Source: Mobula hypostoma (taxonomy: Eukaryota). Taken from it: DNA of 64,000 nt. The position numbers were made by a program, and so were the translations under genes. Each line of letters opens with the position of its first letter. Positions within the stretch are counted from its first letter, which is position 1. Below the pieces are notes generated by a model. That model was not told the origin of the DNA and ran no database searches. It was given only the letters and a program-made list of their open reading frames with translations. The stretch covers positions 25,916,001 through 25,980,000 of the forward strand of contig NC_086108.1 of the NCBI RefSeq assembly GCF_963921235.1, read 5' to 3'. This document shows, piece after piece, positions 1 through 47,823 of the stretch.

Positions 1-81
1 TCTATGATTTCACGCTGAGTGTACCAACGATACTACCAACTGTACCCATGTTTATGTTAGATCTTCCTGTTTCCTTACCAA

Positions 82-360
82 GAATTTTCCACCACTCTGC
101 TAGTCATACCATTGACCGTGTCCATTCACAATTCTCCACCACTCTGCTGGTTGGGCCTTTGAGCATGTCCATTTACAATTCTTCACCACTCTTCTGGCCA
201 GGCCTTGACTGTGTCCAGTTACAATTCTCCACCACTCTGCTAGTCATGCCATCAAACATGTTCATTTACAATCCTCCACCACTCTGCTGATCGTATCCTT
301 GACTATGTTCATTTACAATTTTCCTGCACTCTGCTGGTTGGGCCCTTGACAATGTCCACG
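82..360. repeat. Degenerate ~46-bp minisatellite, about 6 units
   Basis: A unit like (t)tacaattctccaccactctgctg-(n)-ttga-(n)-tgtcca recurs about every 46 nt. It explains the repeated FSTTLLV in ORF 48..290. Confidence 0.8.
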
Positions 361-638
361 GCCAACTTACAACCTTTTCCCTCTCCCATCGAGAACTGCA
401 GCAGGTTTTCCCTTATCCTTTCTCTCCACCACATTCCACAGATGCTATGTGCACCAAATATACTTTCCTCTTTCTTTCTCTTACAGCATTTTAATGTACT
501 GTTTATTGCTGGCGTAGGTTGCTGCTCGGTTATAACCAACAGTCTGTCCTCACATATCCCCTGCATGCACAAGTCGCTCATTCTGGATTCCAAACAGTCC
601 TTCCACATCAGACAGCAATTTGGCATTTACTTCTTTCC

Positions 639-1215
639 AGAATCAGAATCAGGTTTAATATCACCAGCATATGTCATGATATTTATTGTCTTTGTGGCTG
701 CAATATAATGCAATGCATAATAATAGAGAAAAGACTGTGAATTACAGCAAGTATAGATTTTAAACAGTTAAGTTGAATAAGTAGTGGAAGAATTTTAAAA
801 AGTAGTGCGGTAGTGTTCATGGGTTCATACTCCATTGAAAAGTCGGATATCTGAGGGGAAGAGCTGTTCCTGAATCAATGAGTGTGTGTCTTCCTGTACC
901 TCCTTCCTGGTGGTAGTAATGAGAACAAGGCATGGCCTGGGTGATGGGGGTCATGATGGATGCCACCCTTCTGAGGCATCGCTCCTTGCAGGTGTCCTGC
1001 ATACCTTGGAGGCTAGTGCCCATGATGGAGCCAACTAATTTTATAACTCTCTACAGCTTATTTCAATCCTGTGCAGTAGACCCCCAACCCCACATACCAG
1101 ACAATGATGCAACCAGTTAGAATTCTCTCCACGGTACATCAGTAAAATTTTTTGAATGTTTTTGTTGGCATACCAAATCTCCTCAAACTCTCAGTGAAAT
1201 ATAGCTGCTGTTGTG
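639..1215 (-). mobile_element. Rex1/Babar-type LINE 3' fragment
   Basis: The agaatcagaatcagg tail is (TCTGAT)n on the minus strand. ORF 817..1023 (ERCLRRVASI) matches the C-terminus seen in the other copies in this window. Confidence 0.75.
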
Positions 1216-1669
1216 TCCATGTTGACCATTTCATTTATTATTCATATTTCTGTCTTTTCCACAAAAGGAAAACCAAATGCAAATGTGGTTATTGTTCTTT
1301 CTAAATGTATCCGTTCTGTCTGGCCCTGACATTCCAGTGCTGACATTTTTCCCCAGTAACAGATCTGAGAGTATTTCTGCTACTTTCATTTACACTTCCT
1401 GAAAAACTCACTTTTGCCTCTTTTGAATTGAATGGCCTTTACCTTTGTCAGTTCATCACTGCAGTTCTTCTGTTCGATTTTCTCTTCTTCTCACCCCTTT
1501 CCCTTTCTCTGCACTTGAGTAAAACTTGATGTACATCTCACATTTCCCCAGTTCTGATGCAAAGTTATTAATCTGAAATTTAAATCTGTTTTCCCTCCAC
1601 AGAGACTGAGGGATCCATTAAGTATTTCAAAAATTTGCAATGCTCTTCTGTATATTTCCTTCTGACAGC

Positions 1670-1925
1670 TTTTCTTTCTCCATCTCCCTCTCTCTCTCTC
1701 TCTGGTACTTCAAGTTTTTGAGTCTCTCTGTCTCTCTCGGTTGATGCATGGCATTCTATATTAAAATATAGGTCTCTCTATCTTTTTTTACAGCTCTCCT
1801 TTGTTCCCCTCCAACTACTTGAATCTCAATCTCTCTCTCTCTCTCTTCCCCCTTCTCCCTCTCCCTGTCCCTCTGTCCCTTTCTCTCTCTCTCTCTCTCT
1901 ATCTCTCCACATGTAGCTCTCTCAG
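1670..1925. repeat. CT-rich microsatellite / low-complexity tract
   Basis: Several (CT)n runs, seen directly. Confidence 0.85.
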
Positions 1926-2872
1926 TCATTGTACAGTTCTGCTTTTGTGTCGAGGGTAGCCATTACTATCTGTGTGTGGGTGGCTTGCCTAATAATATGT
2001 AGCTCCCGCTGGAAGGGATTGCAGCTGTCACTCTCTGTTAACACGCATCCCTCCCAATCAGTGGGTAGCTCCTTCTATCATGATACATGGCCCTTTAACT
2101 TGGCATGGAAATTTCTATTTTAATAGAGGGTCTATGACTTAAAACAGTGTCACTGTTTTTCTCTTTCCACAGGTACTTCTTGACTTGCTGATTATTTCAA
2201 GCATTTTCTGTTCTTATGCCAGATTTTCAGCACCAGCATTTATTTTGGTTTATCATTGATTCCGGTGCACACTCACAAAGAACAGTTGAATCAAATTAAT
2301 TTCACATTTGTACAAAATGGATTGCTAAAAGCAGAAAGAAGCTGCAGATTTAAGCTGTTCAAGACATGTCTGGTCATATTGCATATTCAAAGCAAAATCA
2401 GTGAATGCATAGAAGCAAAAATAATGGGCAACTGATAAAGAATCCTTCAAGTAGGTTAAGGTATCACCTCTGTGATAGCTGAGTACTCCCAGAACATATG
2501 GAAGAGGTTCACTTGACATCAACAGATATCAATATTCATAACTTTAATCTTCAATATCTGGGGAAAGTCAGATATGATTAATGCAACACGAAACACATTT
2601 CAAGCATAGCTTCACAGAGATTTAATGGGCATTGACCCACGGTGACAATCTCCAAGGTACCTCATCAATTGTACATCCTTGCTCCATCTCCCACTTGTCC
2701 TGAATAGCTGCAATATGATTGTAACTTGTTGGTAGAAGACTGGAATGTAAATGAATTTCACATCATTTATCTACTAGACTAGCTGGCACAGGTCTTCCCA
2801 TTGAGTAATATGAATCTTGGCTCATCTCAGACTGATCAGGAACTCTGCCAGTGTGCAGTTATCCTTTGCACC

Positions 2873-3055
2873 AACACAAAGTGCTGGAGGAGTTCAGGAC
2901 TCAGGCAACACCTGTGGAAGGAAGTGGACAGTTGGTGTTTCATGTCAAGACCTCCAGATGAAGGTCTATTTATTCTCTCCATAGATGCTGCCCAACAACT
3001 GAATTCCTCCAGTGCTCCATGTATTGCTCCAGATTCCAGCATCTGCAGCCTCTCC
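2873..3055. mobile_element. Degenerate palindromic Penelope-derived element
   Basis: acacaaagtgctggagga...gatgctgccc...ttcctccagtgc...ccagcatctgca has the same architecture as 14052-14271. Confidence 0.6.
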
Positions 3056-3959
3056 TGAATCTGTCAAGCTCTCGCTGAAACTCTTTTCTGACTCTGTCCA
3101 TCTTTAGTCTTCCTTCCGCCTCGGTTGCAAATTCTGTTGACGCAGACTGATTTGAAAACTGTGGTGGGCAATAGGATGGGTCTCTGATTTCATCATCGCA
3201 TTACCATGCTTAGCCAAGTTAGGGATAAAGAACATGCAGTCCATGAAAGAGATGGAGAGATTCATTCAATATGCTCAGACCCCTTATTCAATCACCCTGC
3301 TAGAAAATGGAAGCCACAGAATTACATATATGATAGAAGAACAGGCTCTTTAATCTTTAAATCCCTCCATCTGCAACAACTCTCTGACCATTTAATCCCA
3401 TATGATTCCCATCAACTCCCCCCAAATTCTGTCACTCAAATAGATGATGGAGCCAATTTAGATTTGCCAGTCAACCAACTGAGCTGCATGTCAGACCACC
3501 TGAAGGAGATTCCCTCTGGTCGGAAGGAAAAAGTTCATATTCCATAAAGACAACACAAGTGGTCAGGATTGAATCTGAATAGCAGGAACCGTGAGGCAGC
3601 AATTCTACCTTTTGTGCCTCTGTGACACATATATAAAGACAGTTGCCTTTGGGACCTGCCACTTAATAGTTCATAAAGATCATTATACTCTGTCTATAAA
3701 AAGTATTCACCATACCCCTTTGGACGTTTTCATGTTTCATTGATTTACAACATTGAATCACAATGGATTTAATTTGGCTTTTTTGATACCAATCAACAGA
3801 AAAACACTCTTTCGTGTCAAAGTGAACACAGATCTCTACAAAGTGATCTAAATTAATTACAAATATAAAATACAAAATAATTGATTGCTTAAGTATTCAC
3901 CCCTTTCAGTCAGTATTTAGTAGATGCACCTTTGGCAGCAATTATACCCTGGAGTCCTG

Positions 3960-4892
3960 TGTGGATAGGTCTCTATCGGCTTTGCACATCTTGACACTGC
4001 AATTTTTCCCCATTCTTCTTTATAAAACTGCTCAAGTTCTGCCGGATTGCATGGGGATCGTGAGTGAACAATCCTTTTAAAATCCAGCCACAAATTCTCA
4101 GTTGGATTGAGGTCTCACTCCACGACATTAACTTCATTGTTTTTAAGCTATGCCTTTGTAGCTTTGGCTTTTGCTTGGGGTCATTGTCTTGCTGGAAATC
4201 AAATCATCTCTCAAGCCACTGTTCTCTTGCAGACTGCATCAGGTTTTCCTCCAGAGTTTCTCTGTATTTTGCTGCATTCATTTTACCCTCTATATTTACA
4301 AGCCTTCCAGGGCCCGTGGCAGTGAAGCATCTTAACAGCATGATGCAGCCATGCTGTTAAAGTGTGATTTTGGTGACGTGCAGTGTTTGGCTTATGCCAA
4401 ACATAGTGATTAGTCTGATGGCCAAAAAGCTCAATTTTGAAGTCATCAGACCCTATGACCTTCTTCCAGCTGACTTCAGGGTCTTCAGCATGCATTCTGG
4501 GAACCTCTAGACAAGATTTCATGTGACTTTTTCAACAGAGGCTTTCTCTTTGCCACTCTGCTATAAAGTTGCAACTGGTGAAGCACCCAGGCCACAGTTG
4601 TTGCATGCATAATCTCTCCCATCTCAGCCACTGAAGCTTGTAACTCCTCCAGAATTGTCATAGGTCTCTTGGTGGTCTCCCTCATTAGTCTCCTTCTTGC
4701 ACGGTCACTCAGTTTTTGAGGACAGCCTGCTCTAGTCAGATTCACAGCTGTGCTATATTCTTTCTATTTCATGATGATTGACTTAATTGTACTCCAAGGG
4801 ATATTCAGTGACTTGGAAATTTTCTTGCATTCATCTCCTGACTTTTCATTAACCTTTTCGCGAAGTTGCTGGGAGTGTTATTTTGTCTTTAT
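3960..4892 (-). pseudogene. Tc1 DDE transposase pseudogene
   Basis: Minus-strand peptides GCPQKLSDRARRRLMRE...VAKRKPLLKK (HTH/NLS), GSDDFKIELFG (first D), FQQDNDPKQK (second D) and DLNPTENLW (E). Frameshifts and stops present; start codon decayed to ATA. Confidence 0.9.
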
Positions 4893-4971
4893 GGTGTAGA
4901 TTTTGCCAGGATACTGACTCACCAGCAGTTGGACCTTCCAGATACAGGTGTATTTTTACTACAATCAATTG

Positions 4972-5246
4972 GCCGGCTGGTGGTGCAGTGAAAGCAGCTC
5001 CGGACTCCGGAGCGAAGGTTCCCGAGTTCGAATCCAGGTCGGGCCACCCCCGAGCATGCTTTCCACCTATGCCGGGTTGAGTGTCCAGCTAGCCACTCGG
5101 CCTCATAAAAAATACAAGGGTTGAGTCAGGAACATTCATAATGTGACCCGGTTAATTCTGACACCACGTACCAGCCAAGAATGGCTGAATGTCTGATACG
5201 ACATGTTTAAATCATGTTTAAATGACACGTTTAAATGCTTAAAAAG
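4972..5246 (+). mobile_element. tRNA-derived SINE inserted in the Tc1 element
   Basis: A-box-like tggtgcagtg and B-box gttcgaatcc. Tail has repeated gtttaaat and an A run. TSD ctacaatcaattg at 4959-4971 and 5247-5259. Confidence 0.85.
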
Positions 5247-5829
5247 CTACAATCAATTGAAACACCTTGACTACACACAGGTCTCAGAAAAAAATATCAG
5301 ATCTCCACTTAACTAATTATGTGACTTCTTAAACCAATTGACTGCACCAATGATAATTTGGTGTGTCATATTAAACGGGGTGAATACTTAAGTAATCAAT
5401 CATTTCTTTATTTTATTTATAATTAATTTATATCACTTTGCCATGAAAGAGTCTTTTTCTGTTGATCAGTGTCAAAATAAAGTCAAATTATATCCACTGT
5501 GATTCAATGTTCTAAGACAATAAATCATGAAAACTTCCCGGAGCGGTGGGGGGGTGGGGGGGGTGGTGGAAACTGAATACTTTTTATAAACACTGTAATG
5601 TCAAAATTCTTGACAACCCATACTCAGATGTGGAATTACTAAATAATACAGGCTTGGTGTGAATTATTTCAGTGCTAAAAGGCATAAAGTCTTTTTCTAT
5701 GGACACCATAGAAAATACTTACCTCAGATGACTTTGCCATTAGCTGCAAGAACATGGCATGGCTCAGATGTTAGGGATCTTATAATAGATTCTTGAGGCA
5801 GTGCCAATAGTGGGGGGGGGGGACGTACC

Positions 5830-6950
5830 TGTGTCGCATTGACAGAATCCACTCCTTTCTGCAGCTCCTTGCACTTCTGCATATTCAGGTTGCTGTACCA
5901 GACCATGATGCAACAGCCAATCCTCCAATGTGGACTGGCATATGTTCACCCTCCTTCTCCTTTCTGAAGTCAATGTTCAGCTCTTCTGTTGAGCTAGAGA
6001 CTGTAGTGGCACCGCTCAAACAGGTGACCTATCTCGCTCTGGTAACCTCACTCAGGTCACCACCTGTGTTGTTTCCAGATATAGTATGGTTGTTAGTGAA
6101 CTTGAAGTTGGCATTGGAGCAGTTGTAACCATACAGCTACGTGTGTGTAGACAGTAGAGCAGGGGGCTAAGCATGCAACCTTAATCAGTGAGGAAGAGGT
6201 GCTATATCAATCCCCAGGTATTGAGGTCTTCTAATGAGGAAGTTGAATATACAATTACAGAGGGAGGTGCAAAGACCCAGGACCTTAGGCTTGATGATGA
6301 GTTTGGATGGAATGTCTGTGTTGAATGTTCAGCTGTGGTCAAAGATCAGCGGCCTGATGTATTAAGTTCCTGTTGTCCAGGTAGTCCAGTACAGAGTGAA
6401 GAACCAGAGAAATTGCATCTGCTGTTGACTTGCAGTGGTGGTAGGAAAATTGGAATAGGTGCAGGTCATCTCTGAGGCAGGAGCAGATTCACACTATAAC
6501 CAACCTCTTGAAGAACTTCATTATGGTTGATCTAAGCATTTCCAGATGGGAGTCATTGAGACAGGTCACCAGGACAATATATGCCTTTTTGAAGCAGGCA
6601 AGTACCTCAGACAGCAGAAGCCAGAGGTTGAAAGTGTCTGCAAATTCTTTAGCCAGTAGGATGGCACAGTTTTTAGTACTTGGCCAGGTACGTCATCTGG
6701 ACCAGACATCTTATGTGGATTCACCCTCTTGATAGATGCCTGGATATTGGCCTCAGAGGAGATGTGGGGGCTAGCTTGGTTGTTTCAAAGTTCTCGCTAT
6801 CAAAGCACGTATAAGAGGCATTGAGCTCATGTGGGAACGGTGGTGTTAATAAACCTTCTCTGCAAAAAGCAGCTGAAATGCAAGATGGAGGCTGGGAGGC
6901 TGCACAATTATAAAATGCCATGCATGCTCTTAGATTCTGTCAGATGGAAA
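5830..6950 (-). mobile_element. Old Rex1/Babar-like LINE RT fragment
   Basis: Decayed minus-strand RT: agcagggggctaagca (reverse of the CVLSPLL region) and LQKGVDS/VWYSN C-terminal motifs. Confidence 0.6.
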
Positions 6951-7057
6951 TAAGCTTTGTAGTGGCATTCTGCCAAAGAGAAAAGTACAGCAAACCTGAG
7001 GATTTGGCATGAGATACACATCTCAGATTGGAAAACAAATATTAGCAATAATTTAGA

Positions 7058-7225
7058 AACACAAGAGAGTATACATGCTGGAATCTGTAGCAACAAACAG
7101 ACTGCTGGAGGACTGATGCAGGGTTTCAAGATAAAAATCTGTCAATTCCTGTCCCTGCTGCCTGCCACACCCCCCTCACCCCCCCATACAGATACTGCTT
7201 GAGCTGCTGAGTTCCTCCAGCAGCC
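7058..7225. mobile_element. Degenerate Penelope-derived hairpin element
   Basis: ctgctggagga...ctgatgcagggtttc...gctgagttcctccagcag. Confidence 0.55.
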
Positions 7226-7865
7226 CCCTGGCAACAAAGTATACAGGTGTTTTGCTGTGCTTTATTTTCACCTGATAATGTGAACTGAAAATTAAATTTA
7301 CAGTCTGAGAGAAGCTTGTAGTGATTAATAAACATGAATACAGTGAGACCTCTCTGAACGTTTGTTTCTAAGTTACATAAGAGATCTGATAGGAGGCACA
7401 TCAGATTCGCTGAAGGGACCAACTCCAATTGAATTAAAAGCATAACTTAGCCAATCACAACACTGGTTCTTTCCTCAAAATAATAATTCAGAGAACTCTT
7501 GCTTTGACGGCTCAACTTTTGCTTTTCTGGCTTTTATAAAGGAAACAGCTCAGAAGCAAAATGGGGGTGTGCACTCATTAAGGTGGAGCAGCACATAGCT
7601 GTGCAATCATCCCCAAGAGTGAGATCGAGGAAGCTGGATTTGTGTTTTAATCACTCTTCAATAGTTTGTGTGGGATTAGATTTCTTCACAGATATTTATT
7701 TCTTATTCACCACTGTCACAGTTCAGAGGGGACAACTAAGAGGCTGAGGCATTGCACTGTTGATTCTTATTTTAAATGTGGATGTTAATATAGTCTACAC
7801 GTAAAGACACACATCAAAGTTGCTGGTGAACGCAACAGGCTAAGCAGCATCTCTAGGAAGAGGTA

Positions 7866-7903
7866 CAGTCGACGTTTCAGGCCGAGACCCTTCGTCAGGA
7901 CTA
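7866..7903 (-). ncRNA. Minimal type-I hammerhead ribozyme motif (opposite-strand copy)
   Basis: The reverse complement of cagtcgacgtttcaggccgagacccttcgtcaggacta is identical to the 8072-8109 motif. Confidence 0.7.
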
Positions 7904-8071
7904 ACTGAAGAAAGAGCTAGTAAGAGATTTAAGAGACACTGAAGAAGTTTAAATCTTCTCTTTGACGGGAGTTCAGTGAAACCATCTCTCACTGCTCCCC
8001 ATCTGGAATTTCTTCAGCTATCTCCCCCTCCCCCTCCCACTTTTAAATCTCTTACTAGCTCTTTCTTCAGT

Positions 8072-8109
8072 TAGTCCTGACGAAGGGTCTCGGCCTGAAA
8101 CGTCGACTG
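8072..8109 (+). ncRNA. Minimal type-I hammerhead ribozyme motif
   Basis: uaguc-CUGACGA-agggucucggccu-GAAA-C-GUC/gacug: complete core, helix I (aguc:gacu), helix II, palindromic ACGU in place of helix III, predicted cleavage after 8104. Confidence 0.7.
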
Positions 8110-8402
8110 TACCTCTTCCTAGAGATGCTGCCTGGCCTGCTGCGTTCACCAGCAACTTTGATGTGTGTTGCTTGAATTTCCAGCATCTGTAGAATTCCTT
8201 GTGTCCACACATAAAGATGCTGTTGCTACATTGAGTGAAGAGGTGGATGATGAAATGCAGGACACACTATTTAATTACCTCTGTTTCAATAACATACGCC
8301 TTTCCTCATCTTAAGAATGCTACTTTCTTCCCTTTAGAGAAATTAAGAGATCCAGAATTCAATATTATGTTATGTATATGCCAACAAGGTTTGGAGACTT
8401 CC

Positions 8403-8582
8403 AACACACGCTAAATGCCAGAAGAACTCAGCAGGTCAGGCAACATCTATGAAAATGAATAAGCAGTTCAATGACTGTTTAGTTTATTCATTTCCATTGA
8501 TGCTGCCTGAGCTGTTGAGTTCCCCCAGCTTTTTGTATGCATTGCTCTGGATTTCCAGCATTTGCAAAATCCCTTGTGTTTT
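8403..8582. mobile_element. Palindromic Penelope-derived element, ribozyme core deleted
   Basis: aactcagcaggtcaggcaacatc...gatgctgcctgagctgttgagtt arms and a ccagcatttgca tail. Confidence 0.65.
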
Positions 8583-9715
8583 GGAGACTTTCAAATTTAG
8601 TAGTTGAGGAGAAGGAGAGAAAGGGTTTGTATTTCTGTAATGTATTTCACAAAACCTCAGATAGTTCACATCCAGTCCTTCTAAACTGTTGTCTCTATTG
8701 TATTTCAGAAGAGGCAGCAGGTAGAAGATGCTAAGCAAAGTAAGATTGCAAAGAGGTTTATTTTTGCGACACACATTTGATACAGGCTTAGACGGGCCTC
8801 TGTCTTTTCACTACTTAGCTGAAGCTTCAACATCAGTTCAGGCAGACAAGAAATGATCCCTGTGTTTTCATGGGTTAGAACTATCGCACATTCGTTTCAC
8901 AGACTGGTGGCTAAGTCAAACGCAGACTGAGATGCAAGTCAACAAATAGAACATAGGACCATGCAGCACTGGATCTGGCCCTTTGGCCCACGATGTTGTA
9001 CTAAGTCAATTTAGCTAACGATGCACTATGACACTAATCTATTCTGCCTGCTCATGGTCCCTATTTCTCCATTCTTATAACTATCTAAGAGTCTCTAAAA
9101 TGCCTCTACTGTCTCCACCACTTCCCCAGGTAAAAAATTCCAGGTATTCAACATTCCCTGTGTAAAAAGCTTGTCCCACATATCTTTGAACTTTGCCCTC
9201 TTGCCTTAAATGCATGCCCTCTAGTGGGGGTGGCATGGTAGCATTGTATGTCAATAAATAAATAAGTAGTTGATCCTGAGAAAAAGATGCCAGTTTTCAA
9301 ATACTTTGGAATAATCATAATTTGCAGTGGTGCAGGAGAAGCACTCTGGTGTACCTCCTGTAATATATGGATCTATTTCTTTTAGAGCAATGAACCGCAT
9401 CCCCCCTCACCCCCCCCCCCGCAGCACTATGTATTGATCTATTGTCTGTTCATGTGCATTGTTCTCTCTCGTAGCAATGTGTATACCATTAAAGTAATCA
9501 CCTGTGTGCATACTTTTATTTAATATATATGTGATTATACACAGACACAATAAATTGGCAAAGAGTACGAACCTGAATGTCAAAGAATATCACCAACTAC
9601 ATCAACAGTTATGGGACGAAATTGTGAGAGTTAAACAGCATGAGAAAGCCATCACAGGCTCTAACAAACACATGAGTAACAGCGAAAGACATGCTGAATT
9701 TAAAGTGAAAATAAC

Positions 9716-10150
9716 ATGACAGTGGTTTCAGTCGGGAAAGCTGACGAACTTGACAGCGCTAATGAAGGCTGATAGTTGTACATCAAGAGGGTGGAACTGC
9801 ATTGTAACATGAATGTGGAGGAGCAAAAGAAAGCCCCTATATTTCGTAGCTTAATGGGCCCAAGAACGTCAGTCTCTTACGCAACTTAGTAACCACTGAA
9901 AGCCAGCAAGCAAGACATTCAAAGAAATTGTTACAACTTTATGAAATCGTTCAGCCCTAAACTGCTGGTAATAGCTGAGAGATTTAGATTTTACAAAAGG
10001 AAGCAGTCAAAAGAAGAAAGCCTTTCTGAGTACATTAAAGAACTGCACAAACTTTCCCAGTATTGTGACTCTAGAGATCGACTTTCTAATGCATTAAGGG
10101 ACAGGATTAGATGTGGCATGCATTGTCAAAGCACTCAAAAGAGGCTATCA
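9716..10150 (+). pseudogene. Gypsy gag remnant
   Basis: FSPKLLVIAERFRFYKRKQSKEESLSEYIKELHKLSQYC...ALRDRIRCGM is a typical Gypsy gag segment. Confidence 0.85.
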
Positions 10151-10195
10151 TCTGTCATGCATAGAACCGCATAAACTAAAACAGATCACAAAATT

Positions 10196-10830
10196 GGGAT
10201 TGTGAAACGGGCCCAGCAGAGATTGTACTTTCTGAGGAAGCTTAAACAAGCATCACTCCCCACTAACATCTTAACTACATTCTATAGAGGCGTGGTTGAG
10301 AGTGTGCTAACCTTCTGCATCACAACCTGGTACTCCAGCTGCAGTGCTGTCGACAAAAAAGCCTTGCAGAGGGTGGTTAGGGGAGCAGAGAAGGTTATTG
10401 GGGTCTCCCTACCTTCTGTCCAAGACCTCTTTCAGAGTCCATGCCTCCAGAAGACACGGTACATCATTAAAGACCCCTCACACCGTCTCCATGAACTGTT
10501 TGTTCTTCTGCCATCAGCCAAACGTTACAGGAGCATCAAAACTAAAACCACAAGGCTACTAAACAGCTTCCTCCCACAGGCAGTCAGACTGCTAAATTGC
10601 TGCTCCACCTGACTCTGCTTTGGACACTTTTAACTTGCACTGGACACTTATAACTGATTTTAACTGACATGTGGCTGTTGTGTTTTACTATTTATTGTTA
10701 TGTTTATTATTTTGTGTTGCGTTTGTTATGTTATGATTGCACTGTCCCTGAGAAACGCTCTCTCATTCTGCCCTGCAGAGCTGATGTACGGTTAGAATGA
10801 CAATAAAGTTTTTTGAATCTTTGAATCTTT
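10196..10830 (+). mobile_element. Rex1/Babar LINE 3' fragment inserted in the Gypsy element
   Basis: ORF 10202..10612 KRAQQRLYFLRKLK...SFLPQAVRLLN (C-terminal domain), then aataaa and a (ttgaatct)n tail. Confidence 0.88.
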
Positions 10831-12010
10831 GAAAATCATCTGCATCACCATGGACGTGTCTGGTGTAAGCCTGAAAATAGATGTGGATACAGGGTTACCT
10901 TTGTTCATAATTTCAGAGGCTGACTACATCAGACTGTTTTCTGTGATGCCATTAGAGAACACCTCAGTGATGCTGAAGACTTACATGGGTGAAGAAGTGT
11001 CTACCAATGGCAAACTGAAAGTAAATGTAATGTATGGAGGGCAAACTCAACAGTCAGAGCTTTATGTATTAAAAAGTGGAGGGCCAGCACTTTTCGGACA
11101 TGAGTTGTTGAGAAAAATCCAACTAGACTGGCACTCAGTCAAAGCTCTCAGTGTGACATCAACAGGCAATGGCAGCCCAAATGGTAGCACTAACCAGAGA
11201 TTGTCACAGCTGCTTAATGCTAATGAGAAGGTGTTTGAGAAGGGAATAGATAAACAGATCGAAGACTTTGCCAAAGGCTGTTCGGAATGCCAAACAAATT
11301 CAAAATGCACCCCTACAGGCACTGTACACTCTTGGGAGTGGCAATCTTCACCATGGCAATAAGTACATATTGACTTTGCTAGGCCATTCATGGTCTCCGT
11401 GTTTCTGATTGCAGTGGGTGCTCATTCGAACTGCCCAGAGGTTATATCAATGATGTCAACCACCCTAGCAAAGACTGTCTCTGCTCTGAGGATGATCTTT
11501 GCCAGAAGCAGCTTACCAGAACGAATTGTGAATGACAACAGACCCCAATACACATCAGAAGAATTCTGACTGTTCATGATGAGAAATGGCATCAGACATT
11601 TCAAGTCAGCTCCCCACCAACCAGTTAGCTGAAAGGTTTATCCAAAATCTTCAAGAAGCCCATTAAAGTGATGGACAAGAAGGACATTCATCTACAGCGC
11701 AAGGTGGACAACTGCCTTTTTGTCTATCAGAACTCTGTTCACGCGATGACAAATCAAAAACCTGCAATGCTGTTCGTAAGCAAGAATCTGAGATCTTGCA
11801 TAGACCTCCTGAAACCAGACCTCCGGAGGGAAGTACAAAATGTTCAGCCAGTTGCCAAGTGAAGCAGCAAGGAGCTTTGAGATTGGACAGGAAGTCCTAG
11901 CGCATGATTAACGAGAAGAAGCGTGGACACCAGTAGGATAGCTACAAGAACTGGACCATTGATTTACACAGTGGATGTTGGAGATCAGACATGGAGACAT
12001 GAAGTCATCA
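10829..12010 (+). pseudogene. Gypsy aspartic protease fused to integrase remnant
   Basis: IDVDTG protease motif, then GIDKQIEDFAKGCSECQ (zinc-finger end), PWQ*VHIDFARPF and RIVNDNRPQYTSEEF (integrase core). Confidence 0.88.
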
Positions 12011-12527
12011 TGTGGACCAGATTCTGGATGCTCAACTGAAGAAAACACCTGAGTCAACTGCATCTAACAAAATGGACACATTACAGTCACCAGATTTACC
12101 CCACAGTGATAATATCACTGACCGCAATGTGACACCCGAAACTAAGAAGGTTGTCTTAGAGAAGACACCTACCAAACCTGATGCCACACCACAGGACCAG
12201 AGGCATAAAGAGAATGTTATTGTTGATAAGACACCTGCCAGACCTGACGCCACTTCACAAGTCCAGAGATGCTACCCTGAAAGAAACAGAGCGCCAGCCA
12301 AAAGACTGAAACTTTTGGATGTTTATTGTGAAAACATGTTTATTTGGAATATTGGTTTATAAAAGAGAAATTGAATGTTTTCTACATATACAGTTTTATG
12401 TTGCATGATTCTAAAGGGAGAGGAAGTATAATGCATGGATCTATTTCCTTTAGTGCAATGACCCCAACCCTGCCACCCCCTCGCACCCCTGGACTATGTA
12501 TTGATCTGTTGTCTGTGCATGCAAGTT

Positions 12528-15095
12528 GAATAGGAATAGGAAGTATGTTCTGTACTGGGTGTCAGATGTGGATGTCCTGGAGACTCCCAGCCTCCTGGAC
12601 AGCCACATCTGCACCAGGTACATCCAGCTGCAGCTCCTTAGGGACTGGGTTAGGGAACTGGAGATGCAGCTTGATGGCCATCATCTGATCAGTGCAAGTG
12701 AGAGGCTGTAGGCAAGTAGTCACACCGGGGCCTTGGTGGACAGATAAGTGGGAAACAGTCAGGAGAGGGAAGGGCAAGAATCAGATACTAGAAAGAACCC
12801 CAGTGACTGTTCCCCTTAACAATAAGTACTCCTGTTTGAGTACTGTTGGGAGGGACAACCTGCCTTGGGGAAGCAACAGTGGCTGTGTCTCTGGCACAGA
12901 GTCTGGCCCTGTGGCTCAGAAGGGTAGGGAAAGGAAGAGGATGGCAGCAGTGATAGGGGACTCTATAGTTAGGGGGGCAGACAGGCAATTCTGTTGTCAC
13001 ACGAAAGAAACATGGATGGTAGTTTGCCTCGCAGGTGTCAGGGTCCGGGATGTTTCTGATCGCATCCACGATATCCTGAAGTGGGAAGGCGAACAGCCAG
13101 AGGTCATGGTACATATTGATACCAATGACATAGGTGGGAAAAGGGAGGAGGTCCTGAAAACAGACTATAGGGGGTTAGGAAAGAAGCTGAGAAGCAGGAC
13201 CTCAAAGGTAATAATCTTGTGCCTCGAGACAGTGAGTATAGGAATAGAATGAGGTGGAGGATAAATGAGCGGCTGAGAGATTGGAGCAGGGGGCAGGGAT
13301 TCAGATTTCTGGATCATTATGACCTCTTTTGGGGCAGGAGTGACCTGTCCAAAAAGGACAGGTTGCACTTGAATCCGAGGGGGACCAATATCCTAGCAGC
13401 AAGGTTTGCTAACACTATTGGGGAGAGCTTAAAGTAGAAACGCAGGGGAGTGGGAGCCAAACTGAAGAGGTGGAGGAAGGGGCGGTTAACTCACAAATCA
13501 AGAAAGCTTTTAGGCAGTGTGAGAGGGAGGATAGGTAGGTGATAGAGAAGGGATACGTTCAGACTGATGGTTTGAGGTGTGTGTATTTTAATGCAAGGAG
13601 TATCAGGAAGAAAGCAGATGAGCTTAGAGCGTGGGTCAGAACTTGGAGGTATGATGTTGTGGCCATTATAGAGACTTGGATGGCTCAGGGGCGGGAATGG
13701 CTACTTAGGGTGCCAGGCTTTAGATGTTTCAGAAAGGACAGAGATGGGAGGAAAAAGAGGTGGGGGCGTGGGACTGCTGATCAGAGATAGTGTCACGGCT
13801 GCAGAAAAGGAGGAAGTCATGGAGGGATTGTCTACTGAGTCTCTGTGGGTGGAAGTTAGGCACAGAAAGGGGTCAATAACTTTACTGGGTATTTTTTATA
13901 GACCAACCAATAGTAACAGGGACATCGAGGAGCAGATAAGGGGACAGATTCTGGAACAGTGCAATAATAACAGGATTGTCATGGTGGGAGATTTTAATTT
14001 CCCCAATATTGATTGGCATCTCCCTAGAGCAAGGGGTTTAGATGGGGAGGAACACTCACAACACGCTGGAGGAACTCAGCAGGTCAGGCAGCATCCGTGG
14101 AAAAGATCGGTCACCGTTTCGGGCCAGAACCCTTCGTCAGGACTCAGTCCTGACGAAGGGTTCCGGCCCGAAATATCAACCGATCTTTTCCATGGATGCT
14201 GCCCGACCTGCTGAGTTCCTCCAGCGTGTTGTGAGTGTTGCTTTGATCCCAGCATCTGCAGGTTATTTTGTGTTTAGATGGGGAGGAGTTTGTTAGGTGT
14301 GTTCAGGAAGATTTCCTGACACAATATGTCAATAAGCCTATAAGAGGAGAGGCTGTATTTGATCTGGTATTGGGAAATGAACCTGGTCAGGTGTCAGGTC
14401 TCTCAGTGGGAGAGCATTGTGTAAATAGTGATCACAATTCTATCTCCTTTACCATAGCATTGGAGAGGGATAGAAGCAGACAAGTTAGGAAAGCTTTTAA
14501 TTGGAGTCAGGGGAAATATGAAGCTATCAGGCAGGAACTTGAGAGCATGAACAGGGAACAGATATTCTCAAGGAAATGTATGGCAGAAATGTGGCAAATG
14601 TTCGGGGGCTATTTGTGTGGTATTCTGCATAGGTAAATTCCAATGAGACAGGGAAAGGTTTAGGGTGCAGGAACCATGGTGTACAAAGGCTGTTGAAAAT
14701 CTAGTCAAGAAGAAATGAAGAGCTTACAAAAGGTTCAAAAAACTAGCTAATGATAGAGATCTAGAAAATTATAAAGCTAGCAGGAAGGAGTTTAAGAATG
14801 AAATTAGAAGAGCCAGAAGGGGCCATGAGAAGGCCTTAGCGAGCAGGATTAAGGAAAACCTCAAGGCATTCTACAAGTATGTGAAGAGCAAGAGGATAAG
14901 ACGTGAGAGAACAGGACCAATCAAGTGTGACAGTGGAAAAGTATGTATGGAATAGGAGGAGATAGCGGAGGTACTTAATGAATACTTTGCTTCAGTATTC
15001 ACTACGGAAAAGGACCTTGGTGATTGTTGGGATGACTTACAATGAACTGGAAAGCTTGAGCATATAGACATTAAGAAAGAAGAGGTGCTAGAGTT
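12528..15095 (+). mobile_element. CR1 LINE 5' half: ORF1 (zinc finger plus SGNH esterase) and ORF2 APE endonuclease
   Basis: ORF1 CTGCQMW...HICTR, VIGDSIVRG and VHIDTNDIG. ORF2 YFNARSI, VAIIETW, GDFNFP and SDHN motifs. Confidence 0.92.
14052..14271. mobile_element. 220-bp palindromic Penelope-derived element with two back-to-back hammerhead-like cores
   Basis: Arms of ~95 bp centred near 14145. Perfect 16-bp TSD gtttagatggggagga (14036-14051 and 14272-14287) interrupting CR1 ORF2. Confidence 0.85.
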
Positions 15096-15524
15096 TGCAT
15101 GCTCATCTAGTGGGTGTTTCTTCCAGACGCTCAGCTTTCCTACCACGTTTAAACAGCTCGCTGCTTAGTAGGTCAGCTGATTACTGCAAGTCTTTCCAAG
15201 TGTAGAGCTGAGTAATTGGATCTGTCCGAATTGATGGAAATGTGGAGAGAATTTTAAAAAATAGAATTAATGTAGGATTAGCATAAATTAGTGTTTGGTG
15301 ATCAGTATGGACTCAGTGGGTCAAAAGGCCTGTTTTCATCCTGTATGATTCCAACACTATGCCTTGATATAGAACATAGAACAGCACCGTTCCTGTACTG
15401 TGTGCAATTTACATTTGAACACCCTTCACATGCCTGATGTGGACTTGCCAGAAAAAAAGGTGTTCCCAATTAACTCTTCTTAGTTTCTATCTAATGCCCT
15501 CGTAACTTGCCCTACTGCAATTTA

Positions 15525-15785
15525 AGACTCACCCACAAGGAACATACCTATCCTTATCTATATCTATCCTGAAAGTTAAGGAGTTATGGTCACTTTTTCC
15601 TAACAGCTCAACAACTGAAAGGTCAGACACCTGGTCAGACTCATTACCCAACTCCAGGTCCAATACATTGGACCGTTCACATATTGATTTAAGAAACACT
15701 CTTCCATTCACTTAACAAATTCTGCCCCATCTAACCTCTAGCTCTAAGAAGGTCCCAGATAATATTAGGGAAGTTGAAACCCTTC
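15525..15785 (-). mobile_element. CR1 endonuclease fragment
   Basis: ORF 15529..15711 VLDLELGNESDQVSDLSV...SDHN. Confidence 0.8.
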
Positions 15786-15984
15786 CCCACCGCCCCCCAC
15801 CCCCCATGACAACAGCCCTATTATTTTTACATATTTCCTTTATCTGTTACTCCTGGTAATATCAACCACAGCAAATTCTGTATATATGATATTTTCTGTA
15901 ATAATGTAGTAACTTGATTCACTGGGTTTACTGTCTTTGCTGAAACAAAGCTGCATCTTAGATATTCCTTTGCGAAAGAGCTAG

Positions 15985-16310
15985 AAGTGCTGTTATCTCA
16001 TGGGTTCTTAGGCCTTGGTTTCATTTTGATCTCAGGTCCCGTCTATGGAATCTGGGCATATCCCTGTCACTGCATGTGTTTCCTTCAGGTACTTCAGCTT
16101 CCTTCCTGGGCATACAGAAAGGTTTGTAGTCTAACTGACCACTGTAAATTACCCTTTAGTGTAGTAAGTGCCTAATACACCAAATACCTATTGACAGATG
16201 TCTTCAAGAGAATAAGTTGCAGAGTATGTCGTGAAATGAGGAGAGGGAGGAGAGGATTGATGAAGCTGTACTGTTGGGATCACAATGGACCCGATGGTTT
16301 GAACGACTCT
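15985..16310 (+). mobile_element. Degenerate HE1/V-SINE
   Basis: V-domain-like tgtttccttcaggtacttcagcttccttcc...actgtaaattaccc. Confidence 0.55.
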
Positions 16311-17283
16311 TTTTTTTATCGTGATAAGCAAGTAAGCACAAAGTTTAAGCCATGGGCCACATACTTTTGCAGGTCCAGCACTGTATGGACCAAAAGTTGT
16401 GGGGATGAGGGACCTTTATGTGAAGGAAAGACTGGAGAAGTTGCAGTTGTTTTCCTTGGACCAAAATAGATTAGGAGGAAATTAGACAAGAGCACAACAA
16501 AGTAAGCTCAAGTTAATAGAGCGAAGATGTTCTGATTAGCTAATAGCACAAGGCTCAGAGAGCACAGATTCCCAATTATGATAAAAAAGATAAAAAAAGG
16601 AAAAATACTTTTTTACATAGATAGTAAACCTGGAGTAGTCCATGACTGACAGCAGTGGAAACAATCGTGAATTTTCAAAAGGTAATGAGAAAATCCGAAA
16701 GGGAAAATTCCTTGTCAGTATAGAGTAAGTGAAATAGGACTGACTGGATTGCTTTGGAAAGACTCAACATTGTGTCAACATCTTCCTCCCATAAGAATTC
16801 TATGACAGTATTCCTGATCGGATCCAACGCCTTGTAAAAGCAATAAAGCCATACTGCAGGAATAAATAACTAGATTGGAGGATCTTCTCTGCATGTGTTA
16901 CTGATTATATGCCCAATTGATAAATTTCAGACAGTCATAGGCGTGCAAATAAGTCGAGGAAGCTGTGGAGGGCGGACAAGGGAGTTGATGAGAATAGTCG
17001 GGGCAAGATTTCTCTGTGCACTGAAACAGATTGAATAAGCTGAAATGGTCTCATTTATTTTCATATGAAAATAATAGACATTTTGTGATAAAAGTCTGCA
17101 TTAGCAAGACAGTTTTTATCACTGTTATGTGGTTTGAGGCAAACAAAAGCTGTCATTTATACATTTGTTAATTGTCCAGATGTCTGCATTTCCTAGGAAG
17201 GGCCATATATGGCAATACATTTGTATAATCTCAGGATGTACGGCAACAACTCACCAAGACTCTTCAGACAACATCTTCTAAAC

Positions 17284-17363
17284 CAGGGATTCCTAACCTG
17301 GGGTCCACAGGTTTCTTGCTTAATGGTATTGGTCCATGACATAAAAAAACATTGGGAACCCCT
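17284..17363. mobile_element. Short hAT-like MITE
   Basis: Termini cagggattcctaacc ... ttgggaacccct are inverted, with the CAGGG-type end of hAT MITEs. Confidence 0.5.
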
Positions 17364-17788
17364 CTTCTCAACCCATGACCTCCATCAGGTAGAACGATAA
17401 GGGCTGCAAACGTAGGGACTGCCCGCTCCTGGAAGTTGCTTTCAAGCCACTCACCATCTTGACTTGCTATGCCTTCACTCTCGCTGAGTCACACTCCTGG
17501 AACTCCCTCCCTAACAGCCTTGTGGCTATACCCACACCTCAAGTTCTGCAGTGGTTTTAAAACACAGCTCACGAACATCTTTTCAATGGCAAACAGGGAT
17601 AGACAATTAAAGGCTGGGATGCCCACCTCCCTTGAATTAAAAAAAAGTCTAGTGTCATATATTAGAGGATGTGCATTTAAGGTGAAAAGGAGTAAGTTTA
17701 AAAGTTTAAGGGAGATATGTGGGGCATGTTCCTTACACTAAGAGCGGTAGATGCCTGGGATGGGCTTTCAAGAATAGGGAAGGAAGCA

Positions 17789-18174
17789 GTGGGCAGTGGA
17801 GTGGAGATACATCTCTACCAAAGGAGGTGAAAGGTACTCCTACCCTCCACTAGCCTGCAGGTCACCTTTGGGCAAGGTGTAGCACCTGCTCAGCCCCCTG
17901 ATCAGGGTCACATGAAGCCATGGGAACAGGTGGTGGATGGTTGCATGAACAGTTGGTGCACATCACAAGTCCTGGTTATGTGACCACTGACACCTGGCAG
18001 ACATTCTCTGAAGAGTATTGATAATAGATGGGATCATCCATCTTGTAAAGACACTGTGCAGAAGAAGGCAATGGCAAACCATTTATGTAGAAAAATTTCC
18101 CAGGAACAATCATGGCCATGAGACCATGATCACCTATGTCATACGACAGGGCATGTTTAGATGATGATAATGAT
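17789..18174 (+). mobile_element. RTE-tailed SINE inserted in a CR1 3' fragment
   Basis: gaagaaggcaatggcaaacca (BovB/RTE-like motif), (GAT)n tail, TSD ggaagca at 17782-17788 and 18175-18181. Confidence 0.65.
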
Positions 18175-45394: not shown

Positions 45395-45560
45395 CAAACA
45401 AGAGGAAATATGCAGATGGAATCCAAAGCTAGGCTCACAAAATGCTGGAGGAACTCAGCAGGCCAGGCATCTTCTGTGGAAAAGGGTCCTGACGAAGGGT
45501 TTCTGCTTTTCCATAGCTGCTGCCTGGCCTGCTGAGTTCCTCCAGCACTATGTGTGCATT
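45395..45560. mobile_element. Palindromic Penelope-derived element inside a SINE remnant
   Basis: gctggaggaactcagcaggccaggca...gtcctgacgaaggg...tgcctggcctgctgagttcctccagc. Confidence 0.7.
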
Positions 45561-47823
45561 GCTTAGGTTAGATGTAATCGAGTTTGCCGGGGGTTGTTGT
45601 ATTGCGAAATAAATAAAGAAATAAATAACTCTACCAAGTAAGTAAGCTTTTTTCACTGCAAAAGGTATGAGCAAACACTATGGCCATGGAAGTAAATACA
45701 ATAGAGACGTTTAATGAATTTCAGCAATACCCAGGAATGGAAGGATATTGAGCATGTGCAAGCACAAGGAATCAGTTTAATTAGGCATCATTAGCTTAAT
45801 TGATTCAGCACAAAATTGTAGACCAAAGGACCTGTTTCTTTGCTCGATGTTGTATGGTTTATGTTCTGGCTCTGAAGCACAAGTCTCATAAATGAACCCA
45901 GTTGAATAATGCTTTACTCTTATTTGATATGAACCTAGTGCAGTACTTTTTACATTGTAAAGTGTTGTTGAGTGACATTTCATCAGATGTTGTTCTAATA
46001 TTTCACTCATGTCATTTATCTTGTTGAACTCTTAATGGCAAAATGATAGGAAGATGGGTAAGAATTTGCATATTGTCAATAAAGCTGATGAATGATCCCA
46101 TTTGCAGTTCACAATAACAGGTTTCACATGTTGAGTTATGATGAGCAGGGTCAGAAATGAATCTCTTATTGGTTGTATGTCTCAGAACTAACACTTTCAT
46201 CTTGTCAGTTAAACTGCACTAAACATTCTTTACCTTTATCTGTATCATGGGGCTCTTAAACGAAATGCATGAAACTGTGTTTGATCCCTTCATCTGATAC
46301 TGGAAAAGAGACAATAGCTCAAATATGGTTTTCTTGCTACAGAACATTTGCCGCTCAGACTCTCAGAAGTCATTCATTGGAATGTGCATTTTATATTTAT
46401 GCAAACATTTTGACTGTCCATCACCCTCCAGATATCATTCAACATACAGAGAAAAATAAACTCTAACAGGAAAAAAATGAAATGGAAATAATTTCCTCTG
46501 GGTTTATACAAATATGTAGGAAGGAATGCCAATCTGACCACAACAGTGCTCTTATCTCCCCAGCCTACCTATGTTTGCAGCAAGCTACTAATTACCACAA
46601 TGAATTTCTTATTCTGGGGTGGATCCAGTAGCACTTACATCAACAGTGATGGAGTGTTTTGAGGGGTTGATGATGAAATATGTCAACTCCTGCCTGAGAA
46701 GCAACTTGGATCCGCTCCAATTTGCTTACTGGAGCAACAGGTCCCCAGCAGATACCATCTCGTTGGCTTTTTATTTACTCCTGGAACATCTAGACAGCAA
46801 AGGTGCATAAATTAGAATGTTTTTTATGGACTAAAGCTTGACATTCAATACCATTATCTGCTCAAAACTAATCAATAAGCTTCAAGACTTTGGCCTCAAT
46901 AAATCCTTGTTCAATTGGATCCTCAATTTCCTCACTTGCAGAACACAGCCTGTTCAGATTGGCAATAACATCTCCTCTACAATCTCCATCGCCATTAGCA
47001 CATGCACACCATGAGGTTGTGTGTTTAGCCCCCTGCCTTACTCACTTTATACTTAGGACTGTGTGGCAAAGTGCAGCTCCAATACCATATTCAAGTTTGC
47101 TGATGACACTACTGTCATTGACGGAATCAAAGGTGGTGATGAATCAGCATACAGGAGGGAGATTGAAAATCTGGCTGCATAGTGCCACAGCAACAACCTC
47201 TTACTCAATATCATCAAGACCAAGGAGCTGATTATTGACTTCAGGAGGAGGAAACCAGAGGTCCATGAGCTAGTCCTTATTGAAGGATCAGAGGTGGAGA
47301 GCATCAGCAACGTTAAATTCCTCAGTGTTATCATTTCAGAGGACTTGTCCTGGGACCAGCATTTAAGTGCAATTACAAAGAAAGCACGGCAGTGTCTCTA
47401 CTTTTTTAGGAGTTTGCAAGGAATTGGCATGACATCTAAAGTTTTGACAAACTTCTAAATAAGAGTGATGAAGAATATATTGACTGGCTGCATCACAATC
47501 TGGTATGGAAACACCAATACTTTTGAATAGAAAATTCTACAAAAAGTAGTGTATGTGGTTCAGCCATCGCAGATAAAGCCCTCCCCACCATTGATTATGT
47601 CTACATGAAGTGTTGCAGAAAAGCAGCATCTATCATCAGGGACCCCCACCACTCAGGTCATGCTCTCTTCTTACTACTGCCAACAGAAAGAAGGTACAAG
47701 AGCTACAGGATTCACACTGCTAGGTTCAGGTACATTTTTTATCCCTCAACCATCAGGCTTTTGAACCAAAGAGGATAGCTTCACTCAACTTTACTAGTCC
47801 CATCACTGAACTTTTCCCATGGG

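What the first reader, a model, noticed from the sequence alone, without database searches (positions are those of the whole stretch)
7808..8202. Inverted Penelope pLTR insertion with an intact minimal hammerhead ribozyme on each strand
Seen: both arms of a TSD-flanked inverted repeat carry CUGACGA-helix II-GAAA-C-GUC, with helix I closing as aguc:gacu and the palindrome ACGU replacing helix III. Established: Penelope-like elements encode minimal type-I hammerheads that are proposed to work as dimers via a palindromic loop 3. Inference: a transcript from either strand would carry one sense ribozyme plus its perfect antisense copy, giving self-cleavage in competition with a long dsRNA hairpin, a possible built-in switch.
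Basis: partly seen in the sequence, partly recalled or inferred. Interest (0 to 1): 0.75.

Follow-up and report, generated by a model that had tools for sequence, protein, structure and literature searches.

The report
Ordinary mirror-image Penelope transposon stub
This 395-base insert is one of thousands of mirror-image stubs left by a very common Penelope-like jumping gene; each half carries the element's small hammerhead ribozyme motif, but an RNA read across it is predicted to lock the motif in a long hairpin, so it is likely an insertion by-product and not a switch.

Summary
Observation confirmed. The arms (7807-7935 / 8040-8168, 97%) carry identical minimal hammerhead motifs. A relative's contig shows the empty site, fixing the 395-bp insert and a 15-bp TSD. 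The insert is made of pieces of an RT + GIY-YIG Penelope-like element: a tail-less inverted pLTR arm, ORF codons 3-30, and a pLTR end with tail. It is ordinary. The exact 36-mer motif occurs 32,886 times, 8 head-to-head pairs lie among the first 100 matches, and 15 of about 46 sampled young insertions are inverted. Dual min-HHRs on opposite strands were reported in 2014. The switch is not supported: on both strands the antisense arm is transcribed first, the hairpin is -273 against -12 kcal/mol, and a published single min-HHR did not cleave. The motif also has G10.1-U11.1 in place of the conserved G-C. Side result, which this scan has noted before on other DNA: family 5' ends pile up at the ribozyme's front edge, not at its cut site. 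No cleavage or locus-specific RNA data were available.

The parts
7793..7807 (+). Left copy of the 15-bp target-site duplication
   Evidence: 13 of 15 identical to 8203-8217; empty site in organism C holds one copy
7808..7935 (-). Inverted, 5'-truncated pLTR arm without the tail (mirror of 8040-8167)
   Evidence: tail-less arm typical of family pairs
7867..7902 (-). Minimal type-I hammerhead motif, minus-strand copy (predicted cut after 7871)
7936..8019 (+). Piece of the same element's ORF start, codons 3-30, with one in-frame stop that the L047 copy also has
   Evidence: matches 52-135 nt downstream of the 5' pLTR tail in L038-L047; translations
8020..8168 (+). 3' part of the pLTR, sense arm; TATA-like TTTTAAA at 8041-8047 and initiator-like motifs at 8067-8077 (motif names recalled, function untested)
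8073..8108 (+). Minimal type-I hammerhead motif, plus-strand copy: helix I 8073-76/8105-08, core 8077-83 and 8097-8100, extra A8084, helix II 8085-88/8093-96, palindrome 8100-03, predicted cut after 8104
   Evidence: 32,886 exact copies in the genome
8169..8202 (+). 34-bp PLE tail, present on this arm only
   Evidence: family 3' ends are bimodal at about 8169-8175 and 8199-8205
8203..8217 (+). Right copy of the target-site duplication

Best explanation
The insert is a non-coding, head-to-head inverted stub of an abundant endonuclease-bearing Penelope-like element, likely made in one integration event, and its two hammerhead motifs are passengers of the pLTR that are predicted to be trapped in a 129-bp hairpin in any RNA read across the locus. 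Shown: the element identity, the three pieces, the TSD and empty site, the copy numbers and the tail asymmetry. Inferred: the GIY-YIG nuclease cut the target with a 15-bp stagger and both target ends primed reverse transcription, one at the distal start (tail kept) and one at the proximal start about 30-34 nt upstream (no tail). The sense cDNA jumped from the pLTR to the ORF start, and the two truncated cDNAs were joined 5' to 5'. Whatever role the ribozyme has likely belongs to the parent element's RNA, where two same-strand pLTR copies could dimerise, and not to this locus.
For: Parent element: L047 shows pLTR-ORF-pLTR about 3.55 kb apart plus an inverted arm. RT piece matches RVT_1 at E 2.5e-5, below the curated cut-off. 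C-terminal piece resembles GIY-YIG/HTH_animal clusters at 0.97. Abundance: 210 pLTR hits in 140 evenly spaced 10-kb stretches; 43,642 exact copies of a downstream 28-mer; 32,886 of the 36-mer motif. Among the first 100 listed motif matches, neighbours within 1 kb form 8 head-to-head pairs, 1 same-strand pair and 0 tail-to-tail pairs, which extrapolates roughly to 2,600 letter-perfect dual-motif loci. 15 of about 46 young insertions in the 1.4-Mb sample are inverted, and 3 of the 15 span both motifs. With 8 more pairs from 29 pattern loci, 23 of 23 pairs have one arm with tail and one without, and 19 of 23 have an 11-18-bp TSD with at most one mismatch. Folding: hairpin -272.9 against -12.2 kcal/mol for the isolated motif; helix I probability below 1e-40 on both strands as the motif emerges. 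Literature: PMC4209133 (dual min-HHRs about 100-700 bp apart on opposite strands; single motif inactive), PMC3846280 and PMC8557442 (inverted pLTR, one-sided tail, TSD), PMC11167929 (two RT starts define the tail, both strands primed, cleavage not needed in vitro).
Against: No cleavage assay or locus-specific RNA data exist here. Folding was equilibrium per prefix, not a kinetic simulation. The insert is shared with organism B, so it has persisted through a species split, and I could not read B's ribozyme copies to test constraint. Both arms keep TATA-like and initiator-like motifs, so outward transcripts lacking the antisense arm are not excluded. The two-ended priming model is inferred from insertion anatomy and from a different (Poseidon) element.
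Confidence: 0.86

Rival explanations
1. One reading: in a read-through RNA the ribozyme fold competes with the hairpin, so cleavage is toggled.
For: Both motifs keep all 11 core positions. The isolated 46-mer forms helices I and II with probability about 0.96.
Against: The antisense arm precedes the ribozyme on both strands, and about 32 bp of duplex is available before helix I begins. The energy gap is about 260 kcal/mol. There is no second sense copy for the dimer, and a single min-HHR was inactive in PMC4209133. In the isolated fold the core also pairs with the cleavage-site strand.
Confidence: 0.02
2. Each arm acts as an outward-facing core promoter. The two divergent RNAs start at helix I, lack the antisense arm, and pair through ACGU to cleave as a dimer in trans.
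For: Family 5' ends pile up at 8070-8079: 20 of 65 arms at risk, against 1 of 74 at 8100-8109 (Fisher p 9e-7). That fits an RNA start at helix I. TATA-like motif 32 nt upstream is kept in both arms. RNAs starting at 8073 or 7902 form helices I and II with probability 0.3-0.95 over the first 130 nt.
Against: Only 33-53 nt of upstream pLTR remain. Promoter activity is untested. The ACGU duplex is worth only -1.7 kcal/mol and the lowest-energy dimer is an inactive rod. G10.1-U11.1. Even cis dimers cleave poorly (PMC4209133). The helix probability falls to 0.1 or below at 300 nt.
Confidence: 0.04
3. The relevant product is the hairpin itself: read-through RNA from such loci supplies long dsRNA for Dicer or ADAR and helps silence the family.
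For: 129-bp, 97% stem; thousands of such loci. PMC3846280 passages mention small-RNA profiles on inverted Penelope copies in a rotifer.
Against: No evidence that this locus is transcribed, and no small-RNA or editing data. This would be a side effect compatible with the best explanation.
Confidence: 0.06
4. The 395-bp palindrome is itself a mobile MITE-like or retrozyme-like unit.
For: Other copies join the ORF start to the pLTR by internal deletion (L039, L042/L053).
Against: None of the other 29 loci fetched, nor the other 9, shares this copy's junctions. Inversion points differ from pair to pair.
Confidence: 0.02

Closest known systems
Insertion units of EN+ Penelope-like elements with an inverted 5'-truncated pLTR, a one-sided 30-40-bp tail and a TSD (Arkhipova et al. 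2013, PMC3846280; Craig et al. 2021, PMC8557442)
   Same: Head-to-head inverted pLTR arm, tail on one arm only (34 bp), TSD, 5' truncation, internal deletion.
   Different: TSD is 15 bp here (family mostly 13-15) against 8-10 bp in the rotifer copies. No coding capacity is left. The centre is an 84-bp piece of the ORF start.
Minimal type-I hammerheads (min-HHR) of metazoan PLEs (Cervera and de la Pena 2014, PMC4209133)
   Same: No helix III loop, palindromic 15.2-16.2, 4-bp helix I, unpaired base between 9 and 10.1, found in pLTRs, and reported in pairs about 100-700 bp apart on opposite strands.
   Different: Helix II is 4 bp with two G-U pairs, shorter than the 7-8 bp of the Schistosoma motifs. 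G10.1-U11.1 is the majority state of the young lineage (32,886 against 4,891 exact copies with C11.1).
Poseidon element PAc of Anolis carolinensis (Frangieh et al. 2024, PMC11167929)
   Same: Two discrete 3' ends about 30 nt apart that match two internal RT starts; genomic copies here also run through the predicted cut site.
   Different: This family has a CX4CxxC linker (Neptune/Nematis type), and its ORF starts about 150 nt downstream of the cut site rather than inside the ribozyme.
Non-LTR retrozymes (bioRxiv 10.64898/2026.07.22.740005)
   Same: Short non-coding PLE-derived DNA with a type-I hammerhead.
   Different: Retrozymes are same-strand tandem repeats that allow cis dimers; this locus has one motif per strand.

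Membership tests
EN+ Penelope-like element (family of origin) | Single ORF with RT followed by C-terminal GIY-YIG endonuclease | tested here: met
   RT and EN pieces upstream of the same pLTR in L031-L035 and L047; RVT_1 E 2.5e-5, below curated cut-off; GIY-YIG clusters at 0.97; Pfam and NCBIfam gave no GIY-YIG hit. The copies seen are broken; the insert itself has no RT or EN.
EN+ Penelope-like element (family of origin) | pLTRs in direct orientation flanking the ORF | tested here: met
   L047 direct repeats about 3,550 nt apart
EN+ Penelope-like element insertion | Inverted 5'-truncated copy, 30-40-bp tail on one end, TSD | tested here: met
   (23 of 23 pairs asymmetric; 19 of 23 with TSD)
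Neptune/Nematis clades | CX2-5CxxC motif in the RT-EN linker | tested here: met
   CKRNKCYTC in translations; motif definition from PMC8557442 passages
Neptune clade | Placement in an RT phylogeny with reference PLEs | not tested
   no reference PLE RTs were fetched
Minimal type-I hammerhead of PLEs | Core CUGANGA, GAAA, UH; palindromic 15.2-16.2; extra base after 9; short helix I | tested here: met
Minimal type-I hammerhead of PLEs | G10.1-C11.1 pair | tested here: not met
   G10.1-U11.1 in both arms and in 31 of 42 young copies; C in 32 of 59 older copies
Minimal type-I hammerhead of PLEs | Core more conserved than flanks, with helix covariation | tested here: inconclusive
   Between four subfamily majorities 4 of 29 ribozyme columns differ against 25 of 57 3' flank columns (p 0.007). 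Per-copy tests not significant (p 0.056 young, 0.16 old). No compensatory changes seen. A6 is C in 14 of 59 older copies.
Active hammerhead ribozyme | Site-specific self-cleavage as a dimer | not testable with these tools
   needs an in vitro assay
Non-LTR retrozyme | Same-strand tandem units each with a hammerhead | tested here: not met
   one motif per strand at this locus

The most novel reading that the evidence does not exclude
Head-to-head PLE stubs that keep the pLTR core promoter on both arms are two-state loci. Read-through RNA buries the ribozyme in a hairpin (off), whereas divergent transcription from the two internal starts releases two sense ribozymes side by side that dimerise in trans through ACGU and cut off their own capped 5' ends (on). 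Thousands of such loci would exist in this genome.
Probability: 0.04. Interest if true: 0.6.

Novelty: new member of a known kind. Interest (0 to 1): 0.1.

Why it matters
As a locus it matters little: it is one of thousands of like stubs, with a layout already in print. Its use is as a clean example of PLE integration, with TSD and empty site confirmed. The family data around it bear on the open question of what PLE hammerheads do. Integrated copies run through the cut site and stop at the ribozyme's front edge, the most successful young lineage lacks the G10.1-C11.1 pair, and an older lineage carries A6C. All three fit cleavage being dispensable for copying.

Tried and rejected
Rfam scan of 3000-13000 at E<=1: four chance-level hits, no hammerhead. 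No RNA holder listed. Four runs guessed to be RNA, kept as contigs, were laid on 1-18000; the listed pieces were short and lay on repeats, with no listed splice joint and no piece tying the insert to its own flanks, which says nothing about expression or a host gene. Three 64-nt DNA searches returned nothing because very common words are skipped. Idea that 5' truncations mark the cut site: rejected (1 of 74 at 8100-8109). Idea that the pile-up at 8070-8079 reflects splicing to an upstream exon: by eye no shared upstream sequence in the non-inverted copies listed, so not favoured. Idea that U11.1 is post-insertion CpG decay: rejected, since exact 36-mers with four other CpGs intact carry T 32,886 times and C 4,891 times. 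The per-column conservation test gave core 0.858 against 3' flank 0.875 (p 0.91). It padded truncated copies with unrelated flank, so it was redone on spanning hits only; both are reported. PDB search with the RT piece: nothing. A paper search for Penelope + hammerhead + antisense + hairpin + inverted repeat + shark (5 of 6 terms) listed two unrelated reviews; I saw no title or abstract proposing an antisense switch, in a library that lacks most subscription papers. Lunse et al. (PMC5785218) is not held. A search for the effect of G10.1-C11.1 changes gave no usable passage.

Full report
Observation. The inverted repeat is real: arms 7807-7935 and 8040-8168, 129 nt, 97% complementary, 104 nt apart, with four mismatches that all lie outside the ribozyme. 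Both arms carry the same motif. On the plus strand helix I is 8073-8076 with 8105-8108, the core is 8077-8083 and 8097-8100, an extra A sits at 8084, helix II is 8085-8088 with 8093-8096 around a 4-nt loop, the palindrome ACGU is 8100-8103, and the predicted cut follows 8104. The TSD is 7793-7807 / 8203-8217, 13 of 15 identical. Laying four DNA runs on 6800-9200 showed an empty site. An organism C contig joins 7792 to 8203, skipping exactly 395 + 15 bases; an organism D contig joins 7800 to 8217, six bases more than expected; organism B shares the insert. One qualification: helix II closes with G10.1-U11.1, whereas PMC4209133 lists G10.1-C11.1 as highly conserved.

What it is. The sense arm is the 3' end of a pLTR. 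Copies that extend upstream lead into a GIY-YIG domain, a CX4CxxC linker and an RT (RVT_1 E 2.5e-5, below the curated cut-off; GIY-YIG clusters at 0.97; no GIY-YIG hit in Pfam or NCBIfam). L047 holds pLTR-ORF-pLTR with repeats about 3,550 nt apart and an inverted arm. The 84-bp centre (7936-8019) is codons 3-30 of the same ORF. So the insert is an inverted tail-less pLTR arm, then the ORF start, then the pLTR end with a 34-bp tail. The linker motif points to the Neptune/Nematis type (PMC8557442); no tree was built.

How common. The genome has 3.48 Gb. A downstream 28-mer occurs 43,642 times exactly and the 36-mer ribozyme motif 32,886 times. Among the first 100 listed motif matches (first 8.5 Mb of contig C1), neighbours within 1 kb form 8 head-to-head pairs, 1 same-strand pair and no tail-to-tail pair. 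That extrapolates roughly to 2,600 loci with two letter-perfect motifs. In 140 evenly spaced 10-kb stretches there were 210 pLTR hits, 67 of them at 87% identity or more. Of 61 young arms kept (identity at least 88%, reaching 8140, away from stretch ends), 30 formed 15 inverted pairs, about a third of 46 insertions, and 3 pairs span both motifs. Adding 8 pairs from 29 of the 30 pattern loci (L144 dropped as a duplicate of L143), all 23 pairs have one arm ending at the tail end and one ending about 30 nt earlier, and 19 of 23 have an 11-18-bp TSD with at most one mismatch.

Mechanism. The two discrete 3' ends match the two internal RT starts that define the tail in the Anolis element, whose protein cuts and extends both target strands (PMC11167929). 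I infer that both ends of a staggered cut primed cDNA, one from each start, and that the truncated products were joined 5' to 5'. This is inference from anatomy and from another clade's element. It makes the second ribozyme a by-product.

The switch. Because the arms are head-to-head, the antisense arm is transcribed before the sense ribozyme on both strands. Folding growing transcripts gives helix I probabilities below 1e-40 from the moment the motif is complete; the hairpin is -272.9 kcal/mol against -12.2 for the isolated motif. These are equilibrium folds of each prefix, not kinetics, but about 32 bp of arm duplex can form before helix I begins. The motif cannot close helix III alone and each strand has only one sense copy. 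PMC4209133 found no cleavage for a single min-HHR and low cleavage for dimers. The lowest-energy dimer of this motif is an inactive rod, and ACGU contributes only -1.7 kcal/mol. There is no predicted competition to toggle.

Results are mixed. Between majorities of four subfamilies (47, 24, 7 and 6 of 136 aligned copies), 4 of 29 ribozyme columns differ against 25 of 57 3' flank columns (p 0.007) and 12 of 13 upstream columns. Per-copy tests on spanning hits were not significant (young, 42 copies, p 0.056; old, 59 copies, p 0.16), and a padded alignment pointed the other way. No compensatory helix changes were seen. A6 is C in 14 of 59 older copies, and U11.1 is the young majority (31 of 42; genome-wide 32,886 against 4,891). 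Any constraint acted on parent elements, not on this locus.

Family 5' ends. Of 86 young arms, 20 of 65 at risk end at 8070-8079 and 1 of 74 at 8100-8109 (p 9e-7). Copies therefore come from RNA not cut at 8104, and the RNA likely starts at helix I, where initiator-like motifs lie about 30 nt downstream of a TATA-like motif (names recalled; PMC2377424 places the Drosophila promoter in the pLTR but describes it as internal and TATA-less). I saw this before looking it up; the scan's earlier notes report the same pattern on this and other genomes, which is not independent evidence. It opens the one route by which this locus's ribozymes could be free: outward transcripts from 8073 and 7902 lack the antisense arm and form helices I and II with probability 0.3-0.95 over the first 130 nt. 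That is the novel case, at about 4%.

Comparison with what is known. PMC4209133 states that dual min-HHRs were found about 100-700 bp apart on opposite strands. PMC3846280 and PMC8557442 describe the inverted pLTR, the one-sided tail and the TSD. What I saw of each paper: PMC4209133 and PMC11167929, parts 1-2 of 4 of the text (abstract, results, discussion); bioRxiv 10.64898/2026.07.22.740005, part 1 of 5; PMC8557442, PMC3846280, PMC2377424, PMC6765202 and PMC544870, passages only; Lunse et al., only a reference-list entry. No supplements were read; those of PMC4209133 may show fish motifs closer to this one.

Verdict. The sequence observation is confirmed and the identification as a PLE stub with min-HHR motifs is right. 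The switch is not supported. It is a new member of a known kind; interest 0.1.

Noticed in passing
family-wide, window-equivalent 8070-8079: 5' ends of young copies pile up at the front edge of the ribozyme (20 of 65 arms at risk) and not at the cut site (1 of 74). The spot lies at initiator-like motifs about 30 nt downstream of a TATA-like motif, so it is likely the RNA start. Earlier notes of this scan report the same on this and other genomes.
   Followed up: partly
family-wide, position 8096: The dominant young lineage has G10.1-U11.1 (32,886 exact motif copies against 4,891 with C), and an older lineage has A6C in the core (14 of 59 older copies).
   Followed up: partly
window 8060-8120: With pLTR sequence upstream of 8073 included, helix I probability falls to 0.1 or less; in an RNA starting at 8073 it is 0.3-0.95 over the first 130 nt.
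   Followed up: partly
L038, L043/L048, L053: Internally deleted mini-copies place two same-strand hammerheads about 400 nt apart, a retrozyme-like layout that would allow a cis dimer (loci were picked by the ORF-start query, so not a frequency estimate).
   Followed up: no
window 8402-8581: Older inverted stub of a related subfamily (arms 8402-8462 and 8484-8544, 75%) with a tail to about 8581 and no recognisable ribozyme core; another old piece at about 7070-7222.
   Followed up: no
window 14072-14261: Older inverted pair with a decayed hammerhead motif at 14150; further old copies at 32933, 45443-45564, 59194 and 60481.
   Followed up: no
L047:1506-5797: Near full-length copy: inverted arm, 5' pLTR, broken ORF starting MPTLKK, RT, CX4CxxC linker, GIY-YIG, 3' pLTR.
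   Followed up: partly
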